A DNA stretch of 11,043 bases from a virus. Each line of letters starts with the position of its first letter. The first letter of the stretch is position 1. Below are positions 1,472-10,441 of the stretch, piece by piece. The notes below the pieces were generated by a model. The model made no database searches and was not told where the DNA came from. It saw only the letters and a list, made by a program, of their open reading frames with translations. The DNA lies in UHGV virus genome UHGV-0098765. One strand, 5' to 3'. The translations under genes and the position numbers were made by a program.

Positions 1472-2039
1472 TCATAATTCTGTGCTGGTGGCAGGAATTA
1501 ATTTCTGCCAGATAGCGGAAACATATTTTGCCTGATGACGGGCATCAGCTATGGCGTTGTGCCGTTCGCCATCGAAAGGCATGTCCATTTTGGGGTCGAA
1601 TCCGATGGAACGCCCAAGTGTAACGATCGTGCGTACATCGTGGTCATTCCAGTACGCCCACGGGCAGATTTGTCCTGCTCGCTCATAAGCTCCACGTAAA
1701 ATTACGTTGTCGAAGGTGGCTCCGTTACCCCAGACTTTTAAATATTTCGTATTGTCTGCGTGCCGGTAAATGGTTTAGTTCTGAGAGAGCATCGCTGATC
1801 GACAAAGTATCATCAATACAGATTGCAGCTCGCGCTTCAGGGCTTTGTTTCAACCACCACAGGATGGTATCGCCGTCAGGTGTAGCTCCTTGCTTCATAG
1901 CACTGTCTAGGCTGACAACCGCATAGAATTCTTGTCCGATGTCTCCAGTTTCTGGAGTGAAGAACACCGCGCCAATGGAAACGATCGGTGCATCCTTATT
2001 TTTCCCCATCGTCTCAAGGTCGATCATTAAGTTGTTCAT
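1472..2039 (-). pseudogene. DnaQ-like 3'-5' exonuclease, disrupted by a 1-nt frameshift in a homopolymer run
   Basis: N-terminal part (MNNLMIDLETMGK...EIFK) is the track ORF 1725..2093, with start ATG 2037-2039 after AGGAGGTGA. It stops at 1725 right after the run TTTAAAAG (plus 1736-1740). The +1 frame continues VWGNGATFDNVILRGAYERAGQICPWAYWNDHDVRTIVTLGRSIGFDPKMDMPFDGERHNAIADARHQAKYVSAIWQKLIPATSTEL to stop 1472-1474. Removing one A restores a ~188-aa exonuclease. Confidence 0.65.
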
Positions 2040-2557
2040 CACTTCACCTCCTGCGGCGGTTCTGGTAGAGGCATCCAATTGATTACATCGCATTTAGGGA
2101 TGCTGATATCATCACCAAGCCACCCTTGACCTTCAGACCAGCATTGCACGTAATACCCGTATTCTGTGTTCACTACGCACCACTGCGCGTCGTTCGGCAT
2201 TCGATCACTACAGCTTATCCAACTATCCGGAGTTCCCGGATAGTTGCCATTTACATCGAAGTTTGGCTCTGCGTCCTGAACCAGGAGGATGTAACCATTC
2301 TTGGCAGTATCAAGTTCTAACGCCTCGGTGACGGTGCCGAAATAGCGATTACCTAAATCAGCATCACAAGTGCTTACATCAATGGAAACCTCCATGCCTT
2401 CGATTAATTCTGGCAAGTTGTAAGTTTGGCTTACAGGTTCTGCTCCCAGCGATGCCAGTGCAATCCGTGCCAGTTCCATTTGTTCGCCACGGGTAAGCCC
2501 GTTATCAAGCGGATTTTTAATGAATAATTCGATACGTTCTTTGGTAATAGTGGTCAT
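2039..2557 (-). CDS. DUF551 domain-containing prophage protein (172 aa)
   Basis: Intact ORF; AAGGTGA 7 nt upstream of ATG 2557. C-terminal W-rich region (WISCSDRMP...WCVV...CWSEGQGW...VINWMPLPEPP) is typical of DUF551. Stop overlaps the exonuclease start (ATGA). Confidence 0.8.
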   Translation of the reverse strand: MTTITKERIELFIKNPLDNGLTRGEQMELARIALASLGAEPVSQTYNLPELIEGMEVSIDVSTCDADLGNRYFGTVTEALELDTAKNGYILLVQDAEPNFDVNGNYPGTPDSWISCSDRMPNDAQWCVVNTEYGYYVQCWSEGQGWLGDDISIPKCDVINWMPLPEPPQEVK

Positions 2558-2752: not shown

Positions 2753-3262
2753 TCACTCTCCTTTGATGCGAATGCCAGCTGCGCTTGCTGATTCTTCATA
2801 TGCGCGTTTAGCAGCGTTAATGATTGCTGCCAGTGGCGTATAGCCGCCATCCATTCGGATTGTGTTGTGGATGCCAGCCATTGTGTTGCGCAATTTTCTG
2901 TGGCTAGCAGACAGTTCTGCTATGCGCTTCTCTGCGGCTTCCATCTCAACGCGCAGCCTTCCTACCGTTAGCGCAATATCCTCGTTCTCCTGGTCACGGC
3001 GTTTGATGTATTGCTGGTTTCTTTCCCGTTCATCCAGCAGCGCCTGCACTACTTCAGGGTTGAAAGCTGCGATATAACGAGCGTTGTTCTCTGCGTTGTT
3101 CTGTCCATCAAAGCCGGTCCATTTGATAACGTCTTCACATCGTTTATCACCAGGTGTATGCACCGCATATGTACCAGTACCAGACGAAATAAATGCGACC
3201 CATTCACCCTGTGTTGCCAGTTGCGCCGCTTTACGCAGTGCCTGATAGTCAATCTTGCTCAC
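2753..3262 (-). CDS. Ead/Ea22-like family protein (169 aa from the GTG start)
   Basis: GTG 3260-3262 is preceded by AAGGAGG with 6-nt spacing and overlaps the stop of the upstream 79-aa ORF (GTGA). N-terminus SKIDYQALRKAAQLATQGEWV plus a central coiled-coil-like region match this family. The track start at 3298 is also GTG and lacks an RBS. Confidence 0.65.
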   Translation of the reverse strand: MSKIDYQALRKAAQLATQGEWVAFISSGTGTYAVHTPGDKRCEDVIKWTGFDGQNNAENNARYIAAFNPEVVQALLDERERNQQYIKRRDQENEDIALTVGRLRVEMEAAEKRIAELSASHRKLRNTMAGIHNTIRMDGGYTPLAAIINAAKRAYEESASAAGIRIKGE

Positions 3263-3498
3263 TGGTTGCCTCCTTTGCGGATCTGCGCTGCGATGCACGA
3301 AAAAAAAGACTCCCGCGTATGACTGTTAAGAGCTGGCGCGAACGCTGCGTTAAGAACGGCAGCATCACAGCCGTCATCGATATAGAGCGCAATTTTTTTC
3401 TCCAGGCGTGCTTTGGCTTCCTGCAACTGCATACCCCGGCACGCACGTGGGATATACTCAGCAATTTGAGCGATAGATTTTTCGTTCTGTTTAAACAT
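3259..3498 (-). CDS. Hypothetical prophage early protein (79 aa)
   Basis: ATG start with GAGGTGA 5 nt upstream; overlaps the stop of the upstream 67-aa ORF by 8 nt (ATGTTTAA), a translationally coupled chain. Confidence 0.55.
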   Translation of the reverse strand: MFKQNEKSIAQIAEYIPRACRGMQLQEAKARLEKKIALYIDDGCDAAVLNAAFAPALNSHTRESFFSCIAAQIRKGGNQ

Positions 3499-3694: not shown

Positions 3695-4053
3695 TTCTTA
3701 TTCTCCGGTGCTTTTGGCATTACTGCCCAGTGAGTGATATTGACGTTTTCAAGGTCCCCGACCTGAAATGTCCACTGCCATTCTCCGTTTTCTTTTTGCC
3801 CCCAGGTGTCCCAGAGGGAACGCCAGCCAATCAGCCAGCCTTCTCCGTTAGCATCAAATAACAGAACACTTTCATTTGCTGGCGGCAGTTCAGCTGACAC
3901 TGGTATTATTTTGTTTTCCAGTGCCGCACATTTAGCTTCAAGCGCGTCGAATTTACGTACCAGGTACTCGGCATTTGTTTCGTTCACTTTCAGATCTCGC
4001 GGTACACATTTTCCGCGAAGAAACCCTTCCATTTCGAAAACATTCATGCGCAT
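3691..4053 (-). CDS. yfdS: DUF551-like prophage protein, YfdS-like (120 aa)
   Basis: C-terminal W-rich motif (GWLIGWRSLWDTWGQ...WQWTF...ITHWAVMPKAPE) is DUF551-like. Length and position after the YfdR-like gene match, from memory, the K-12 CPS-53 gene order yfdP-yfdQ-yfdR-yfdS. Overlaps the upstream gene by 10 nt. Confidence 0.7.
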   Translation of the reverse strand: MRMNVFEMEGFLRGKCVPRDLKVNETNAEYLVRKFDALEAKCAALENKIIPVSAELPPANESVLLFDANGEGWLIGWRSLWDTWGQKENGEWQWTFQVGDLENVNITHWAVMPKAPENKK

Positions 4054-5597: not shown

Positions 5598-5960
5598 TTA
5601 ACGACCTGCTGCGCGGAGTTTTCCGTCAGGTTCACCGGCAAGAGTCAGTAATTGTCCCTGGTCTTCCTGCAGAATAGTCAGGCGACCACCGCGATTGACA
5701 TACATCAGCGTTTCGGTGGTGTCTTCTTCGGAAATTTTCCCGCGGTTAGTCGGGCGAACATATGAGAGTTTATGTTTGATTTTCACACGGTTCTCATCAA
5801 ATGGTTCGATTTCCAGGTTGAGCGAGACCTTACCTTTGTTTTTCGTGTTCATCGCACCGGAAGCGACTTCACTGAGAACTGCGCCGAGTTTGGTTTCAAA
5901 TACGCCGCCGTCCAGTTCTACGATAAATTCCTGCACGTTGGTACTGCGTTCGCTAGCCAT
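5598..5960 (-). CDS. yfdP: YfdP-like hypothetical prophage protein (120 aa)
   Basis: Start ATG 5960 (MASERSTNVQEF...) with GAGGAGCAG RBS. The track ORF extends to 6191, but that extension (Cys/Arg/Pro-rich, non-protein-like) lies in the structured leader. Confidence 0.7.
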   Translation of the reverse strand: MASERSTNVQEFIVELDGGVFETKLGAVLSEVASGAMNTKNKGKVSLNLEIEPFDENRVKIKHKLSYVRPTNRGKISEEDTTETLMYVNRGGRLTILQEDQGQLLTLAGEPDGKLRAAGR

Positions 5961-6096
5961 TTTGCTGCTCCTCATCATATCGACCCTGCAAGGTCGGTTG
6001 GTTTCTCCACAAAACAGAGAAGAACACCTGCGGTGGCAGCCGCCCGGATGGATTGGGTTATGAGCCCGTCGTCCGGTGATGCTCTTCTCTGTTTTG

Positions 6097-6143
6097 TAAA
6101 AAGAGCGGTACCAGCCGGAAGCAAGTGTACAAACTGGTACCGC
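6097..6143 (-). terminator. Intrinsic terminator inside the PL leader, upstream of the first early-left gene
   Basis: Minus-strand RNA: GCGGUACCAG, 19-nt loop, CUGGUACCGC, then UCUUUUUACAAAAC. 10-bp perfect stem at plus 6105-6114 / 6134-6143. The U-tract region CGCUCUUUUUACAA also resembles boxA (CGCUCUUUA). Confidence 0.5.
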
Positions 6144-6546
6144 CAAAGCAGTGGCTGTTGTGGTGGGGTTGTCACTCAGGCGTATGGTCAACCTGACAAC
6201 CCGGTGTCCTCAACGGGGAAAGAGTAACCCCGCCATACTTACCGCCGCGCCATTTCGCGGATTACCACAACGCTGAGAGCACTTAGCTAGTTACGGCACC
6301 ACACTTTGTCGCTGCTCCATAAATGCCCTCATCGTTGCACCCTGGTCTCTTCCCAGGCGTCAAACCGAATCGCCACGCTGGTTAGACGTCTTATCAGCAT
6401 CCTCATTGACTTGCACATTCCGGCTACCTGGTTTGTTTGCCCGAGCAAGGAGTGGATTGTCCCCTTTAACGTCCCCAGACCGCTAACGACGCATGTGCCA
6501 TACGCCGTGTTACAACCAAATTTTGTTAGGACCTTGTTTGTTTGTC

Positions 6547-6606
6547 TGGAAAGAAAGATAAAATGAAATTGCGTATTGTGCAAGTGTTTTGTTGCGAGTT
6601 ATGCAA
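6547..6606 (-). promoter_or_regulatory. Putative PL early-left promoter with two OL-type operators
   Basis: Minus-strand -35 TTGCAC (plus 6578-6583), 17-bp spacer, -10 TATCTT (plus 6555-6560). Two 15-bp palindromic sites TTGC-N7-GCAA at 6569-6583 and 6592-6606 match the same motif in the OR region (7376-7390). Confidence 0.5.
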
Positions 6607-6616
6607 TAGCGTGAGT

Positions 6617-6640
6617 AATGAAAAGCCACCTTCTGGTGGC
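6617..6640 (-). terminator. Intrinsic terminator downstream of the repressor gene
   Basis: Minus-strand RNA: GCCACC-AGAA-GGUGGC then UUUUCAUUACU, about 23 nt after the cI-like stop codon. Confidence 0.6.
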
Positions 6641-6662
6641 TAATTGATGTTGAGGTAGGGGG

Positions 6663-7355
6663 TTAATTGTGTCGCTTAAGGGTTTGTGACTGACTGATTA
6701 AGACCTTTCCAAAGACCATAAACCGGTGTTCGTTTTCGCTGGTAATTCCCCATTCGCGGTAAATCTGATTATCAGAAATTACCAGCAGTTTATCAGGTAT
6801 CATTTGCAGTCGTTTGACGTAAATTTTATCATCAAAACCAAATACATATATACCATCCCCATCAAACTGATTGATACTGATATCAACGAAGATAAGATCT
6901 CCTGGCTCAATGGTTGGACACATACTGTCCCCACGAACGTTGATAACTTTAATGTGATTTGCTGGTCGTCCACCAAACATCGATACAGCATTATCAGTTC
7001 TGTATTCAATGGCATGAATCACATCAATGACATCACCGCCCTGGATAAGGCCATTTCCCGCACTGGCACTGACATCCAGCATTTCAATACGGAATACATC
7101 CTTCACCTGCGCAACATCCTCACTAATACTGTTTTTACATACAGTATTACTTTTGAGGTCTGAGGTAAAGAGATCAGCAATATCAACACCTAAGCTCCTG
7201 GCAATATTACTCAGGGCTTGTTCAGTGAATTGTTTCTGCTTACCTGTTTCGAGGCGCGAGATATTCGCCGCATCCACTCCTATTGCTTCAGCGAGATCGG
7301 CGATTTTCATGTTCTTCGCCTGGCGAAGTTGTCTGACTCGATTTCCTATGTTCAT
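6663..7355 (-). CDS. CI-like prophage repressor (N-terminal XRE-type HTH, C-terminal S24 LexA-like peptidase domain; 230 aa)
   Basis: HTH region RVRQLRQAKNMKIADLAEAIGVDAANISRLETGK; candidate Ala-Gly cleavage site (SASAGNG); catalytic Ser in GDSMCPTI and Lys in KRL. Divergent from the cro-like gene; apparently leaderless, with -10 TGTAAT 6 nt before the ATG. Confidence 0.9.
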   Translation of the reverse strand: MNIGNRVRQLRQAKNMKIADLAEAIGVDAANISRLETGKQKQFTEQALSNIARSLGVDIADLFTSDLKSNTVCKNSISEDVAQVKDVFRIEMLDVSASAGNGLIQGGDVIDVIHAIEYRTDNAVSMFGGRPANHIKVINVRGDSMCPTIEPGDLIFVDISINQFDGDGIYVFGFDDKIYVKRLQMIPDKLLVISDNQIYREWGITSENEHRFMVFGKVLISQSQTLKRHN

Positions 7356-7713: not shown

Positions 7714-8257
7714 GCATCATTGGAAAGTGGAAAAACAACCTGAGTGGTACGTGAAAGCTGTCAGAAAAACTATCGCGGCATTGCCTGGGGGTTACGCTGA
7801 AGCTGCTGACTGGTTGGATGTAACAGAGAACGCTTTATTCAACCGCCTTCGTGCAGATGGCGATCAGATTTTCCCGTTGGGATGGGCAATGGTTTTACAG
7901 CGTGCTGCTGGCAATCACCACATTGCGGATGCTGTCGCACAGTCTGCTGGTGGGGTGTTTGTATCACTTCCTGAAATTGAGGAAGTAGAGAACGCCGATA
8001 TCAACCAGCGCCTGCTGGAGGTCATTGAACAGATCGGCAGTTATTCAAAACAGATTCGTTCAGCAATTGAAGACGGGGTGGTGGAACCACACGAGCAGGC
8101 AGCAATTAACGACGAGCTGTACATGTCAATTTCGAAGCTGCAGGAGCATGCAGCACTGGTCTACAAAATCTTTTGCGCTCCAGAAAAGAGTGACGCCCGC
8201 GAGTGTGCAGCTCCGGGCGCCGTGGCGTTTTGTGTCTGTGGAGAAACTAACGCATGA
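7706..8257 (+). CDS. Putative CII-like phage regulatory protein (183 aa), function hedged
   Basis: GTG start at 7706 with AGGAGG 6 nt upstream, overlapping the cro-like stop by 8 nt. Position immediately after cro. No specific motif verified. Confidence 0.55.
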   Translation: MGKHHWKVEKQPEWYVKAVRKTIAALPGGYAEAADWLDVTENALFNRLRADGDQIFPLGWAMVLQRAAGNHHIADAVAQSAGGVFVSLPEIEEVENADINQRLLEVIEQIGSYSKQIRSAIEDGVVEPHEQAAINDELYMSISKLQEHAALVYKIFCAPEKSDARECAAPGAVAFCVCGETNA

Positions 8258-9405
8258 ACAGTTTAACGGCAAATAACCGTTTGTCGCAACAGCTGGTGGT
8301 CAGCGTGGCTGAACACCTGTTGTTACGGCATGAATGCAGATTACCAAATCACCTGGCTGTAAGTAACCACAGAGAACTTTACCTGACTGTGGGGGGCGAG
8401 TTGTGCAGGAACTTAACCGCTGGTTTCGTGACGGAAGAGGGCTTTATGTCCATGTTATTCGTTGGGAGCCAGAAACACAGCGCGTTATCTATCTTCGCAA
8501 AGACTACCCGCATGAGTGCTTTAGTCCTTTGTGGAAATTCAGGCGTGATTTTGTTGAGTGTGAAGGACCACCAACACATTGATTCTGCCATTCCGGGACG
8601 TTACACTATTCAGGCACCTTATAAAACGGGTGCCGGGCGTGGAAACCCGGAATTCACCAAAGCGCACAACCGCGCTCTTGCGGTTTTTTTGTGTCATGAG
8701 CAGCATTACGCCCAAATTATGGTGGGGCGTGCAGGGCCAACTTCGGTTGGGCCGGGTTCTTTGGTGACCGGTATTTCCACCCCTGTACGTCTCACCACCA
8801 ATAAGGTCGTGGAAAGCCTTGGTGGTGAGTTATTAAAAATCACCAAAGAGGCTGCCATCATGGCTACGATCCCAACCCTCACTCAACCTGAAATTGCCAT
8901 CGTTGATGGTCAGGCTGTTACTTCATCCCTGGCTGTTGCCAACTTCTTCTCCAAACGTCATGACGATGTACTGAAAAAGATCCGCACGCTTGAATGCTCA
9001 GCATCATTCACTGCCCGCAATTTTTCGGTGAGTGATTACACTGATTGCACAGGTCGCAAACTTCCTTGCTACCAAATCACACGCGACGGTTTTGCGTTTC
9101 TTGCTATGGGTTTCACGGGTAAACGTGCTGCCCAGTTCAAAGAGGCATATATCAATGCCTTTAACCAGATGGAGAAACAGCTTTCAAAGCCCTATGTACC
9201 GAGCGACGTTGCACATAACGCCAGCGTTCTCTGTTCCTACATTTCATCAATTCATCAGGTCTGGCTGCAGCAGCTTTATCCTATGTTGGCAAAAGCCGAA
9301 TCTCCGCTGGCTGTTAGCTTATATGACTATATTAATGATGCTTCGGCGCTGGCCTGCCTCATAAATTTGTCGCTGAACCCTTCAGAGGTAAGGGGGCGCA
9401 AATGA
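8254..9405 (+). CDS. Rha-family phage regulatory protein (Rha domain in the C-terminal half); alternative start at ATG 8840 gives a 188-aa canonical Rha protein
   Basis: ATG 8254 overlaps the CII-like stop (ATGA) with a GGAGAAA RBS, and the frame stays open for 383 codons. The recognisable Rha domain (VDGQAVTSSLAVANFFSKRHDDVLKKIR...YQITRDGFAFLAMGFTGKRAAQFKEAYINAFNQMEKQL) begins only after ATG 8840, which has its own AAAGAGG RBS. A terminator-like hairpin with a T7 run (8648-8670) lies inside the N-terminal part. Confidence 0.45.
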   Translation: MNSLTANNRLSQQLVVSVAEHLLLRHECRLPNHLAVSNHRELYLTVGGELCRNLTAGFVTEEGFMSMLFVGSQKHSALSIFAKTTRMSALVLCGNSGVILLSVKDHQHIDSAIPGRYTIQAPYKTGAGRGNPEFTKAHNRALAVFLCHEQHYAQIMVGRAGPTSVGPGSLVTGISTPVRLTTNKVVESLGGELLKITKEAAIMATIPTLTQPEIAIVDGQAVTSSLAVANFFSKRHDDVLKKIRTLECSASFTARNFSVSDYTDCTGRKLPCYQITRDGFAFLAMGFTGKRAAQFKEAYINAFNQMEKQLSKPYVPSDVAHNASVLCSYISSIHQVWLQQLYPMLAKAESPLAVSLYDYINDASALACLINLSLNPSEVRGRK

Positions 9406-9626
9406 TCCGGAATATTTTCAAACGGTTTACCAATCAGACCTTCCGTTGTCCTCGTCCGGGTCAGTGGTACACCACGCCTGCAGGGCATGTTCTACGTGTT
9501 AGCCTGGTTGACCGTGAATGTCAGAAAGTGATTTGTGAACCGCTGGGCCGTAATTACCGCGTCAGTATGCCGCTTATAGCATTTCGCTCTGGAAAAAACA
9601 TGAAGCATCTCGGAGGTGCAGCATGA
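9402..9626 (+). CDS. Hypothetical small Cys-containing protein (74 aa)
   Basis: ATGA overlaps at both ends (9402-9405 and 9623-9626), consistent with translational coupling inside the replication operon. Confidence 0.5.
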   Translation: MIRNIFKRFTNQTFRCPRPGQWYTTPAGHVLRVSLVDRECQKVICEPLGRNYRVSMPLIAFRSGKNMKHLGGAA

Positions 9627-10441
9627 GTATGGAGCTGATGGTTAAAGCGATGAAAATTCGAGTGGGTAATCCATTGCGAAAACTGGTTCTGATCAAGCTG
9701 GCTGATAATGCCAGCGATCAGGGTGAGTGCTGGCCCAGCTACCAGCATATTGCTGACCAGTGCGAGATTAGCAAACGTTCTGTGATGAATCATATTGCGG
9801 CCCTTTGTGATTCCGGGCTGGTAAAAAAAGTCACCCGGAAAGGTGAAAAAGGTAACTCAAGTAATATCTATCTCCTTCATCTTGATGGTGCAGGAGATTC
9901 ACTAGGGGGTAGTGCAAATGATTCACTATCTGGTGCAGCAAATTCACCAGGTAGTGCAGGAGTTGCACCAGGGGGTGGTGCAGGAGATTCACCCAGAACC
10001 AGTCACTCTTTTGAACCAGTCAATGAACCAGTCAATGAACCAATAGCTGTTGGTGCATCTGCTGATGAGTCTGTGCGAGTTCGTTCAAACCGACCGGAAT
10101 ACTCTCCGGAGTTTGAGCAGGCATGGCTGGCATATCCCAAACGTGCTGGTGGCAATTCAAAATCAGCGGCCTTCAAAGCCTGGAAAGCCCGTTTGAACGA
10201 GGGGGTAAACCCCGAAACCATGCTGGAAGGTGTGAAACGCTACGCGGGCTGGGTATCTGCGATGGGCAATAGCGGCACACAATTTGTGAAACAGGCTGTC
10301 ACGTTCTTTGGTCCGGATCGTCATTTCGAAGAATCCTGGGAAGTTCCTGCGGTATCTGCAGCTAGACGTGAGGACCCGTACTTCAAAGCCAGTTACGACA
10401 ACGTGGACTACAGCCAGATCCCGGCAGGATTCAGGGGGTGA
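9623..10441 (+). CDS. Replication initiator, lambda O-like organisation (N-terminal winged-helix DNA-binding domain, internal iterons, C-terminal domain; 272 aa)
   Basis: GGAGG RBS 6 nt upstream. N-terminus (LRKLVLIKLADNASDQGECWPSYQHIADQCEISKRSVMNHIAALCDSGLV) is replication-protein HTH-like. A low-complexity linker (GAGDSLGGSANDSLSGAANSPGSAGVAPGGGAGDSP) is encoded by a direct-repeat array. Confidence 0.75.
   Translation: MSMELMVKAMKIRVGNPLRKLVLIKLADNASDQGECWPSYQHIADQCEISKRSVMNHIAALCDSGLVKKVTRKGEKGNSSNIYLLHLDGAGDSLGGSANDSLSGAANSPGSAGVAPGGGAGDSPRTSHSFEPVNEPVNEPIAVGASADESVRVRSNRPEYSPEFEQAWLAYPKRAGGNSKSAAFKAWKARLNEGVNPETMLEGVKRYAGWVSAMGNSGTQFVKQAVTFFGPDRHFEESWEVPAVSAARREDPYFKASYDNVDYSQIPAGFRG
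9887..10036. repeat. Iteron array (putative prophage replication origin) inside the O-like gene
   Basis: Five direct repeats of a 16-bp unit RGTGCA-N6-TKCAC at 9887, 9911, 9932, 9953 and 9977 (spacing 21-24 bp), each with inverted GTG/CAC ends. Followed by tandem 12-bp GAACCAGTCAAT x2.6 at 10013-10044. Confidence 0.7.

What the first reader, a model, noticed from the sequence alone, without database searches (positions are those of the whole stretch)
5961..6560. About 600 nt of ORF-free, hairpin-dense leader between PL and the first early-left gene, with an internal terminator and no N-like gene
In lambda the first PL product is the antiterminator N. Here the predicted PL (about 6550-6583) is followed leftward by a non-coding stretch packed with perfect stems (6166-6174/6194-6202; 6245-6260), an intrinsic terminator (6097-6143) whose U-tract resembles boxA, and an ~90-nt hairpin with a 15-bp perfect stem (6009-6023/6083-6097) just before the YfdP-like start. 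This could be a put-like RNA antitermination element, a nut-like site served by an unrecognised small N analogue, or a terminated prophage ncRNA.
Basis: partly seen in the sequence, partly recalled or inferred. Interest (0 to 1): 0.7.

Follow-up and report, generated by a model that had tools for sequence, protein, structure and literature searches.

The report
Prophage leader holds DicF-like RNA genes
The 600-base "empty" stretch after the prophage's early-left promoter is a chain of conserved, folded RNA modules: a variant of the DicF small-RNA gene with its own terminator, preceded by a widespread pseudoknotted RNA that no RNA-family database lists.

Summary
All the reported stems exist, and the leader folds far better than shuffled sequence (z = -4.6). 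No ORF in it is conserved.

The leader is not a nut site, and it is not detectably a put RNA. It is a mosaic of RNA modules transcribed from PL:
- Module A (about 6507-6341) is a roughly 170-nt RNA with four covarying helices, a covarying pseudoknot and about 48 invariant bases. It also occurs in phage P1, in epsilon15-like phages and in about a quarter of complete E. coli genomes. It has no Rfam family.
- A 19-bp stem follows (6339-6266).
- Module B (6271-6157) is about 90% identical to the 5' part of the 190-nt DicF precursor of E. coli K-12 prophage Qin.
It keeps DicF's stem but carries a different loop, with no complementarity to ftsZ.
- A 23-bp hairpin (6100-6006), which looks like an RNase III substrate, precedes yfdP.

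The locus is a new variant of a known kind. Module A may be a new RNA class; its function is unknown.

The parts
6555..6606 (-). PL promoter with left operators. The -35 element TTGCAC is at 6583-6578 and the -10 element TATCTT at 6560-6555. OL1 is 6569-6583 and OL2 is 6592-6606. The transcription start is inferred at about 6547.
   Evidence: Operator pattern. Read from the sequence. The annotated HK639 pL has the same architecture.
6341..6507 (-). Module A, an unclassified pseudoknotted RNA. H1 is 6507-6487. H2 is 6478-6475/6431-6428. The invariant 19-mer GGUAGCCGGAAUGUGCAAG is 6428-6410. H5 is 6389-6375. The pseudoknot pairs 6383-6380 with 6366-6363. H6, with its GAAGAGA loop, is 6357-6341. 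The covariance-model match extends over 6541-6303.
   Evidence: Alignment of 47 diverse copies. Pair counts: 95.7% paired, 105 cells changed on both sides against 34 in shuffles. Model match of 168.8 bits, a single copy in the window. No Rfam hit.
6266..6339 (-). Junction stem 1. Positions 6339-6320 pair with 6285-6266 (19 bp plus one bulge) around a small apical structure. It is a candidate RNase III site. Its 3' end, CGUUGUG|G, is the boundary where the 'cargo' RNA starts.
   Evidence: Folds: window -29.1 kcal/mol, z = -2.1; phiV10 equivalent -45.5 kcal/mol, z = -6.2. The same stem ends at the tRNA-Arg 5' end, at module B or at other modules in different phages.
6157..6271 (-). Module B, the homologue of the 5' domain of the 190-nt DicF precursor. 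The closing helix is 6271-6264/6164-6157. Hairpin Pa is 6260-6245. Hairpin Pc is 6202-6194/6174-6166. A pseudoknot pairs GUAUGG with CCAUAC.
   Evidence: 90% identical to K-12 Qin just upstream of dicF and 76% identical to the P1 'dicF-like region'. Pair counts on 41 copies: 95.9% paired, 9 pairs changed on both sides against 2.7 in shuffles.
6098..6156 (-). DicF-like small RNA variant of about 50-59 nt. The terminator stem is 6143-6132/6116-6105. The 15-nt loop is UGUACACUUGCUUCC. The U-tract is 6104-6098. The 5' end is inferred.
   Evidence: Fold. Weak DicF RF00039 match, 11.8 bits, covering the stem only. It occupies the position of DicF in 124 homologous loci. Present in 1376 of 5426 E. 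coli genomes and unannotated in the eight listed records.
6006..6100 (-). Stem 2, a Y-shaped long hairpin. A stem of 23 paired positions (6100-6078/6028-6006) carries two small apical hairpins. It is a candidate RNase III site between the small RNA and yfdP.
   Evidence: -49.1 kcal/mol, z = -7.3. Pairing is kept in copies that are 81% identical, through one-sided changes and a replaced apical hairpin.
5961..5996 (-). Small hairpin CGACCU-UGCA-GGGUCG (5996-5981) and the Shine-Dalgarno sequence GAGGAG (5973-5968) in front of the yfdP ATG at 5960.
   Evidence: Sequence. The fold is not better than chance, z = -0.6.
5598..5960 (-). yfdP-like first early-left gene.
   Evidence: Annotation of homologues. 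PHROG 204 match.

Best explanation
The leader is a composite, processed non-coding RNA locus in the PL operon. Its core is a paralogue of the dicF locus of prophage Qin.

Proposed sequence of events:
1. When CI leaves OL, RNA polymerase transcribes module A, a conserved pseudoknotted RNA of unknown function.
2. It then transcribes a 19-bp stem, followed by a four-way-junction domain (module B), and then a small RNA of about 55 nt whose 12-bp hairpin plus U-tract is an intrinsic terminator.
3. By analogy with DicF in K-12, RNase III would cut in the flanking long stems and RNase E would cut just 3' of module B. This would give a precursor of about 180 nt and the mature small RNA.
4. Transcripts that end at the terminator supply the small RNA with a U-tail. 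Transcripts that read through fold the 23-bp hairpin, are cut there, and express yfdP and the genes beyond it.
5. The small RNA would act in trans through its C/U-rich loop on targets other than ftsZ.

Shown here: the homology, the conserved structures, the modular mosaic and the absence of conserved ORFs. Inferred: every processing step, Hfq dependence, partial termination and trans-action.
For: - Homology: window 6271-6149 is 90% identical to K-12 Qin immediately upstream of dicF. It is 76% identical to the region that the P1 record annotates as 'dicF-like', just downstream of Pban.
- Position: in 124 loci that share this domain, the next element is always a hairpin with a U-tract. Its stem resembles DicF and its loop varies. 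The types seen are canonical DicF, the window type and at least six others.
- Family match: DicF RF00039 is the top RNA-family match to 6103-6147, but only for the stem, at 11.8 bits. The K-12 control scores 76.7 bits.
- Structure: module B has 95.9% of cells paired and 9 pairs with changes on both sides, against 2.7 in shuffles (0 of 500 shuffles reach this).
- K-12 experiments: RNase III makes the 5' end of a 190-nt DicF species, RNase E makes the 53-nt form, and read-through transcripts exist (PMC10448788). RNase III also makes a 72-nt 3' variant (PMC5069750).
- Long duplexes flank the unit here.
- No coding signal: the ORFs in the leader have no family outside self-referential PHROGs and are broken by indels in homologues.
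Against: - No expression or end-mapping data exist for this variant. None of the processing sites is mapped here.
- The DicF covariance model scores far below its threshold, and the first 11 model positions are missing.
- The loop shows no better pairing with the ftsZ start region than with shuffled sequence: -14.6 kcal/mol against a control mean of -16.9. The defining DicF function is therefore probably absent, and the targets are unknown.
- The K-12 equivalent of stem 1 was identified by eye only.
- This model does not explain module A.
Confidence: 0.75

Rival explanations
1. Module A is a put-like, protein-independent processive antiterminator. The nascent RNA would bind RNA polymerase and carry it through the small-RNA terminator and later terminators of this N-less phage's early-left operon.
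For: - This phage group lacks N.
- The module lies promoter-proximal and upstream of an intrinsic terminator.
- In some prophages (L020, L050) it starts 2-3 nt after the inferred start of an HK639-type pL, which is exactly where putL sits in HK022 (PMC9378689).
- It is independent of the identity of the downstream gene.
- Its first hairpin shares CGGCG...CAUGCGUCG with HK022 and HK639 put.
- G.U pairs fix the strand as the PL sense strand.
Against: - The covariance model finds nothing in HK022 or HK639 at E up to 10, and no second (putR-like) copy in the window. BLAST finds no similarity.
- It is about 170 nt with pseudoknots, whereas put is two stem-loops of about 70 nt.
- The N-less relatives SfII and SfV keep the same small-RNA terminator but lack an intact module A.
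- In P1 the module lies deep inside the ban operon, after the dicF-like terminator.
Confidence: 0.2
2. Module A is a free-standing stable ncRNA, ribozyme or riboswitch. It would be released by processing of its neighbours and would have its own function, for example binding a host factor or ligand, or cleaving itself to mature the adjacent tRNA or small RNA.
For: - About 48 invariant bases sit in junctions and loops. These include a 19-mer that is unchanged in 21 of 22 copies found through an independent anchor across ten enterobacterial genera.
- One pseudoknot shows covariation and a second is possible.
- Of 129 copies, 69 touch a tRNA or a DicF-type precursor. More are followed by other DicF-like RNAs.
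- Its ends coincide with the tRNA 3' end in P1 and, through stem 1, with the tRNA 5' end in epsilon15-like phages.
- Some copies are bounded by a promoter and a terminator-like hairpin.
Against: - There is no experimental trace of such an RNA in the papers searched.
- No ligand, cleavage site or partner can be inferred.
- One copy sits directly in front of an ORF, like an ordinary 5' UTR.
Confidence: 0.3
3. The leader is a nut-type site, with boxA at the terminator U-tract and a boxB-like hairpin, served by an unrecognised small N analogue.
For: CGCUCUUUUUACAA resembles boxA. The hairpin CCGCG-AAAUGG-CGCGG sits upstream of it.
Against: - The boxA-like bases vary among sister copies, which read GUCCUU, GACCUU or GCCCUU.
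- The hairpin loop is 6 nt, not a GNRA-like pentaloop.
- No N family was found in the left-operon proteins. No conserved ORF exists in the leader. SfII, SfV and SfIV are reported to lack N.
Confidence: 0.03
4. The stretch encodes small proteins. Candidates are the 66-aa ORF 5975-6175(-), the 84-aa ORF 6329-6583(-), or plus-strand ORFs that are annotated in some phage records.
For: Some records annotate hypothetical proteins here. PHROG 33599 and PHROG 3651 match two of the ORFs.
Against: - Those PHROGs only reflect the same automatic annotations.
- The 84-aa ORF starts upstream of the inferred transcription start.
- Homologues carry indels that are not multiples of three, and their invariant blocks show no codon periodicity.
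- Changes on both sides keep RNA pairs, not codons.
- There are no Pfam hits.
Confidence: 0.03

Closest known systems
DicF small RNA and its 190-nt precursor in the dicBF operon of E. coli K-12 prophage Qin (Rfam RF00039)
   Same: - It lies in the repressor-controlled early-left-type operon of a lambdoid prophage.
- The upstream domain of about 115 nt is 90% identical.
- The small RNA ends in a long hairpin with UUUGGCGGUAYCAGUUU at its 5' side and a U-tract.
- Long duplexes flank the unit, at the places where RNase III cuts in K-12.
   Different: - The loop, which pairs with ftsZ in DicF, is replaced, and the 5' tail of 11-12 nt is absent.
- It scores 11.8 bits against a threshold of 48.
- It shows no ftsZ complementarity.
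- The downstream gene is yfdP rather than dicB.
- Module A precedes it, which Qin lacks.
The 'dicF-like region' of phage P1, downstream of Pban
   Same: It has the same precursor domain, with compensatory changes in three helices, followed by a terminated hairpin RNA. P1 also carries module A in the same operon.
   Different: In P1 the order is reversed and the two modules are about 2 kb apart, with tRNA genes and tciABC between them. The small-RNA body is unrelated in sequence.
HK022 and HK639 put RNAs (protein-independent antitermination)
   Same: They are promoter-proximal structured RNAs in the PL transcript of N-less lambdoid phages. The base of the first hairpin is similar (CGGCG/CGUCG).
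   Different: - There is no detectable homology by BLAST or by covariance model.
- Size and architecture differ.
- There is only one copy.
- The module is also found in non-lambdoid contexts.
AgvB/AsxR anti-sRNA family of EHEC prophages
   Same: It is a prophage small-RNA family in which a conserved scaffold, including the terminator, carries interchangeable target-recognition segments.
   Different: Those RNAs sit at the PR' moron site, vary at the 5' end rather than in the hairpin loop, and are primary transcripts rather than processed from a long leader.
RNase III sites in phage early leaders (lambda N leader, T7 early sites)
   Same: Duplexes of about 19 paired positions or more, with small apical structures, lie between functional units of an early transcript.
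   Different: Cleavage is not demonstrated here. The stems flank a small-RNA gene rather than separate cistrons.

Membership tests
DicF (Rfam RF00039) | Scores at or above the family's gathering threshold (48 bits) against the covariance model | tested here: not met
   11.8 bits, E = 1.9, model positions 12-52 only. No hit when 801 nt were searched. The K-12 control scores 76.7 bits.
DicF (Rfam RF00039) | Lies directly 3' of the conserved precursor domain in a prophage early operon and ends at an intrinsic terminator | tested here: met
DicF (Rfam RF00039) | Complementarity of the hairpin loop to the ftsZ translation start region | tested here: not met
   Best duplex is -14.6 kcal/mol against a shuffled mean of -16.9. 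DicF gives -21.8, and the L158 variant gives -18.4 with 11 contiguous pairs.
DicF (Rfam RF00039) | [quoted passage not shown] | not testable with these tools
   Known for K-12 only (PMC10448788; PMC5069750).
put RNA (HK022/HK639) | Sequence or profile similarity to putL or putR | tested here: not met
   BLAST finds none. The module A covariance model finds nothing in HK022 24000-30100 or in the whole HK639 genome at E up to 10.
put RNA (HK022/HK639) | Two adjacent stem-loops of about 70 nt just downstream of the early promoter | tested here: not met
   Module A is about 170 nt, with four helices and a pseudoknot. In the window it starts about 40 nt after the inferred transcription start.
put RNA (HK022/HK639) | Suppresses termination in cis through the RNA polymerase beta' zinc-binding domain | not testable with these tools
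   This needs reporter fusions, in vitro transcription or rpoC mutants.
nut site / N antitermination | Conserved boxA and a boxB hairpin with a GNRA-like pentaloop | tested here: not met
   The boxA-like bases are not conserved. The hairpin loop is 6 nt.
nut site / N antitermination | An N-family protein encoded downstream of PL | tested here: not met
   No Pfam N family in nine left-operon proteins. Relatives are reported to lack N.
Any Rfam 15 family (for module A) | Match at the gathering score, or at E up to 10 | tested here: not met
   PGAP leaves the region unannotated in all twelve listed E. coli records.

The most novel reading that the evidence does not exclude
Module A together with junction stem 1 is an undescribed class of structured phage RNA. 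It would act as a portable 5' 'launch pad' placed in front of small-RNA cargo (tRNA-Arg, DicF-type precursors and others). It might modify RNA polymerase so that it reads through the cargo's terminator, or it might direct or catalyse cleavage at the invariant ...CGUUGUG|G boundary. The DicF-type locus would then be a cassette system in which seed loops are swapped on a constant processing scaffold.
Probability: 0.35. Interest if true: 0.85.

Novelty: new variant of a known kind. Interest (0 to 1): 0.62.

Why it matters
- **DicF is one member of a larger family.** DicF is a textbook prophage small RNA. This locus shows that it belongs to a family in which a constant, structured precursor domain carries different hairpin loops. 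The window's variant is in about a quarter of complete E. coli genomes, has a loop unrelated to ftsZ, and has no annotation in the records checked. A common prophage regulator with unknown host targets is therefore being overlooked.
- **A well-supported RNA fold has no name.** The locus also exposes a fold of about 170 nt with one covarying pseudoknot (and possibly a second), near-invariant in sequence across ten enterobacterial genera. It occurs in P1, in epsilon15-like phages and in lambdoid prophages. It has no Rfam family, and no mention was found in the papers searched.
- **It bears on an open question.** Module A sits where N-less lambdoid phages would need a device to pass terminators. 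How such phages achieve early antitermination therefore becomes directly testable.

Tried and rejected
- **Rfam.** The gathering-threshold scan of the window finds only isrK and C4 in the right operon. The E-value scan of 5900-6700 gives only noise.
- **tRNA or tmRNA.** ARAGORN finds none in the window.
- **A putR-like second copy.** Inverted-repeat, fuzzy-motif and covariance-model searches all find a single copy.
- **Literature string searches** for the module A 19-mer and for the small-RNA sequence: no paper. Faubladier & Bouché 1994, King et al. 2011 and Łobocka et al. 2004 are not in the held library.
- **RNAduplex against a long ftsZ region** was uninformative, because it allows huge internal loops. 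It was replaced by a windowed search.
- **Targets of the small-RNA loop among the window's own start regions.** Only the antisense self-match stands out.
- **Resemblance of GGUAGCC to the RfaH ops element.** By eye, only the GGTAG core matches. Rejected.
- **Non-enterobacterial hits in the genome scan** lack the 19-mer and are chance matches.
- **My helix-length counter** stopped at bulges. Only the stem end-points and the following sequence were used from that call.

Full report
**Setting.** The window is the immunity region of an SfV/mEp460/cdtI-type lambdoid prophage of E. coli.
- cI is at 6663-7355 (minus strand) and ends at a hairpin terminator at 6641-6624.
- Two operators of the form TTGCG-N5-xGCAA lie at 6569-6583 and 6592-6606, and the same motif recurs at OR.
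- They overlap TTGCAC-N17-TATCTT (6583-6555). The HK639 record annotates the same layout as pL.
- The leader therefore runs from about 6547 down to the yfdP ATG at 5960 on the minus strand.

**Observation.**
- The whole leader folds at -225.8 kcal/mol, against -196.6 +/- 6.3 for shuffles (z = -4.6).
- The long hairpin gives -49.1 kcal/mol (z = -7.3). The terminator hairpin has 12 bp plus UCUUUUU (z = -2.8).
- Pfam finds no N-like protein in nine left-operon proteins. The relatives SfII, SfV and SfIV are reported to lack N (PMC3851460).

**The leader is a mosaic.** Sensitive BLAST against phage records splits it into independently distributed blocks.
- Window 6521-6265 matches P1 and P7 (between trnI and ban), epsilon15-like podoviruses (in front of tRNA-Arg), mEp390 and a Klebsiella phage.
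- Window 6271-6149 matches other lambdoid phages, the P1 region annotated 'dicF-like', and K-12 Qin.
- Window 6145-5962 matches SfV, SfII and ST64B.

**The dicF connection.** Window 6271-6149 is 90% identical to the sequence immediately upstream of dicF in K-12.
- Where K-12 has DicF (UUUCUGGUGACGUUUGGCGGUAUCAGUUUUACUCCGUGACUGCUCUGCCGCCCUUUUU), the window has AGCCACUGCUUUGGCGGUACCAGUUUGUACACUUGCUUCCGGCUGGUACCGCUCUUUUU.
- On a 91-nt slice, DicF RF00039 is the top Rfam match, at only 11.8 bits against a threshold of 48. It covers the stem and not the loop. K-12 DicF scores 76.7 bits.
- Among 124 loci that share the upstream domain, the following hairpin RNA comes in at least eight types that differ mainly in the loop.
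- Canonical DicF (-21.8 kcal/mol) and one variant (L158, 11 contiguous pairs) can pair with the ftsZ start region. The window's loop cannot do so better than chance (-14.6 against a shuffled mean of -16.9).
- The window type occurs in 1376 of 5426 complete E. coli genomes. It is unannotated in the eight listed records.

**Module B structure.** On 41 non-redundant copies, the proposed structure pairs 95.9% of cells.
- It has a closing helix, three arms and a GUAUGG:CCAUAC pseudoknot.
- Nine pairs changed on both sides, against 2.7 in shuffles (0 of 500 shuffles reach this). With partners slid by 1-3 columns, only 33-56% of cells pair.
- In K-12, RNase III creates the 5' end of a 190-nt DicF species, RNase E creates the 53-nt form, and read-through transcripts exist (PMC10448788). 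RNase III also gives a 72-nt 3' variant (PMC5069750).
- The length of 190 nt places that 5' end at the start of module B.

**Flanking stems.**
- Upstream, 6339-6320 pairs with 6285-6266: 19 bp, z = -2.1. The phiV10 equivalent gives -45.5 kcal/mol, z = -6.2.
- The 3' end of this stem, CGUUGUG|G, is followed by module B in the window, by the first base of tRNA-Arg in epsilon15-like phages, and by other RNA modules elsewhere.
- By eye, K-12 has an equivalent stem at the place where a 190-nt length puts the RNase III-dependent 5' end (sequence).
- Downstream, the 23-bp stem at 6100-6006 keeps its pairing in copies that are 81% identical. One apical hairpin is replaced there by an unrelated one.
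- Both stems have the length expected of RNase III substrates. This is an inference from general knowledge of RNase III, not a result.

**Module A.** Forty-seven diverse copies align with about 48 invariant bases.
- The proposed structure has H1, H2, H5 and H6. It also has a pseudoknot between the H5 loop and a downstream GGUG, plus a possible H1-loop:GUGC contact.
- It pairs 95.7% of cells, against 87.4% in shuffles.
- 105 cells changed on both sides, against 34 in shuffles (0 of 500 reach this). Slid controls pair only 23-48% of cells.
- Examples: 78-90 is AU in 26 copies and GC in 21. 222-230 is AU 24, UG 15, CG 7. The pseudoknot pair 225-245 is CG 42, AU 5.
- Frequent G.U pairs fix the transcribed strand as the PL sense strand.
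- RNAalifold shows that the invariant GCACAU of H1 could alternatively pair with the invariant AUGUGC. Because both segments are invariant, covariation cannot decide this.
- A genome scan anchored on a different part of the module returned 22 true copies, 21 from ten genera of Enterobacteriaceae and one on a short contig labelled as a Bacillota metagenome bin. The 19-mer GGUAGCCGGAAUGUGCAAG is intact in 21 of them. Seven hits in other phyla lack it and are chance matches.
- Module A is in 1271 of 5426 E. coli genomes, including P1-like plasmids. It is unannotated in all twelve listed records.
- No Rfam family matches it.
- A covariance model finds one copy in the window (168.8 bits). It finds none in SfII, Qin, CPS-53, the HK022 immunity region or the whole HK639 genome.

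**Context of module A.**
- Of 129 copies, 29 are followed by a tRNA, 23 by module B, and 17 are preceded by a tRNA.
- Several of the remaining copies are followed by other DicF-like terminated RNAs. One sits directly in front of an ORF, and some are followed by a terminator-like hairpin.
- In L020 and L050 the module starts 2-3 nt after the inferred start of an HK639-type pL, where putL sits in HK022 (PMC9378689).
- SfII keeps only a degenerate remnant of H1, yet it keeps the window-type small RNA and the long hairpin. Module A is therefore not indispensable to this phage type.

**Coding.**
- Leader ORFs have no Pfam family. Their only PHROG hits are families built from the same automatic annotations.
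- Homologues carry indels that are not multiples of three.
- The boxA-like bases are not conserved.

**Conclusion.** The locus is a DicF-family small-RNA gene with its precursor domain and processing stems, embedded in the PL leader.
- It fails the formal DicF membership tests (model score, ftsZ complementarity). I therefore file it as a new variant of that kind.
- Module A is a real, strand-specific, widely conserved structured RNA without a name. Its role is open: antiterminator, stable ncRNA, ribozyme, riboswitch or processing platform.
- No processing step has been demonstrated for this locus.

Noticed in passing
window 8614-8690 and 8715-8802 (+): Strong Rfam matches to isrK (67.9 bits) and C4 antisense RNA (83.6 bits) lie inside the 383-aa ORF 8254-9405, which homologues annotate as an antirepressor or transcriptional regulator. 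This looks like a P1/P7-type c4-ant immunity module in the right operon. The N-terminal part of that ORF is probably not coding.
   Followed up: partly
window 9888-9992 (+): Four tandem copies (spacing 21-24 nt) of a GTGCAGGAGATTCAC-like repeat lie inside the replication-protein ORF 9623-10441. They resemble the origin iterons found within lambdoid O genes.
   Followed up: no
window 6006-6033 and 8508-8535: The 3' arm of the long hairpin (CCGCAGGUGUUCUUCUCUGUUUUGUGGA on the minus strand) is 71% similar to a plus-strand segment about 80 nt upstream of isrK. This may be chance.
   Followed up: no
L158:5642-5784 and downstream (viral contig): One DicF-locus variant has a loop (AGUUUCUCUCC) that differs from DicF in sequence but gives 11 contiguous pairs with the ftsZ ribosome-binding site. 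This suggests that ftsZ targeting is kept or re-evolved in some cassettes and lost in others, such as the window's.
   Followed up: partly
L004 (P1) 2424-2727; L005/L006 (epsilon15-like phages) 2001-2315: Module A begins one base after the 3' end of tRNA-Ile (trnI) in P1. In epsilon15-like phages the stem that follows it ends exactly at the 5' end of tRNA-Arg. Processing of the neighbouring tRNA would therefore define one end of a module A RNA.
   Followed up: partly
L002 (SfII) 3960-3990 and 3170-3300, minus strand: SfII keeps only a truncated H1-like remnant of module A (ACACGGUGCAUGUGUCGUAAGCAGUC). In place of module B it has a different domain (GGUGAAUGCGGCUCAGCGCACGCGG...), which resembles the K-12 dicF-dicB spacer. 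The same closing helix and the same window-type small RNA still flank it.
   Followed up: partly
window 6266-6272: The segment CGUUGUG can pair either upstream (junction stem 1) or downstream (closing helix of module B). The two helices are mutually exclusive, which might order the processing steps.
   Followed up: no
window 1725-2093 (-): This early-left ORF carries a 3'-5' exoribonuclease Rv2179c-like domain (Pfam E = 1.2e-35).
   Followed up: no
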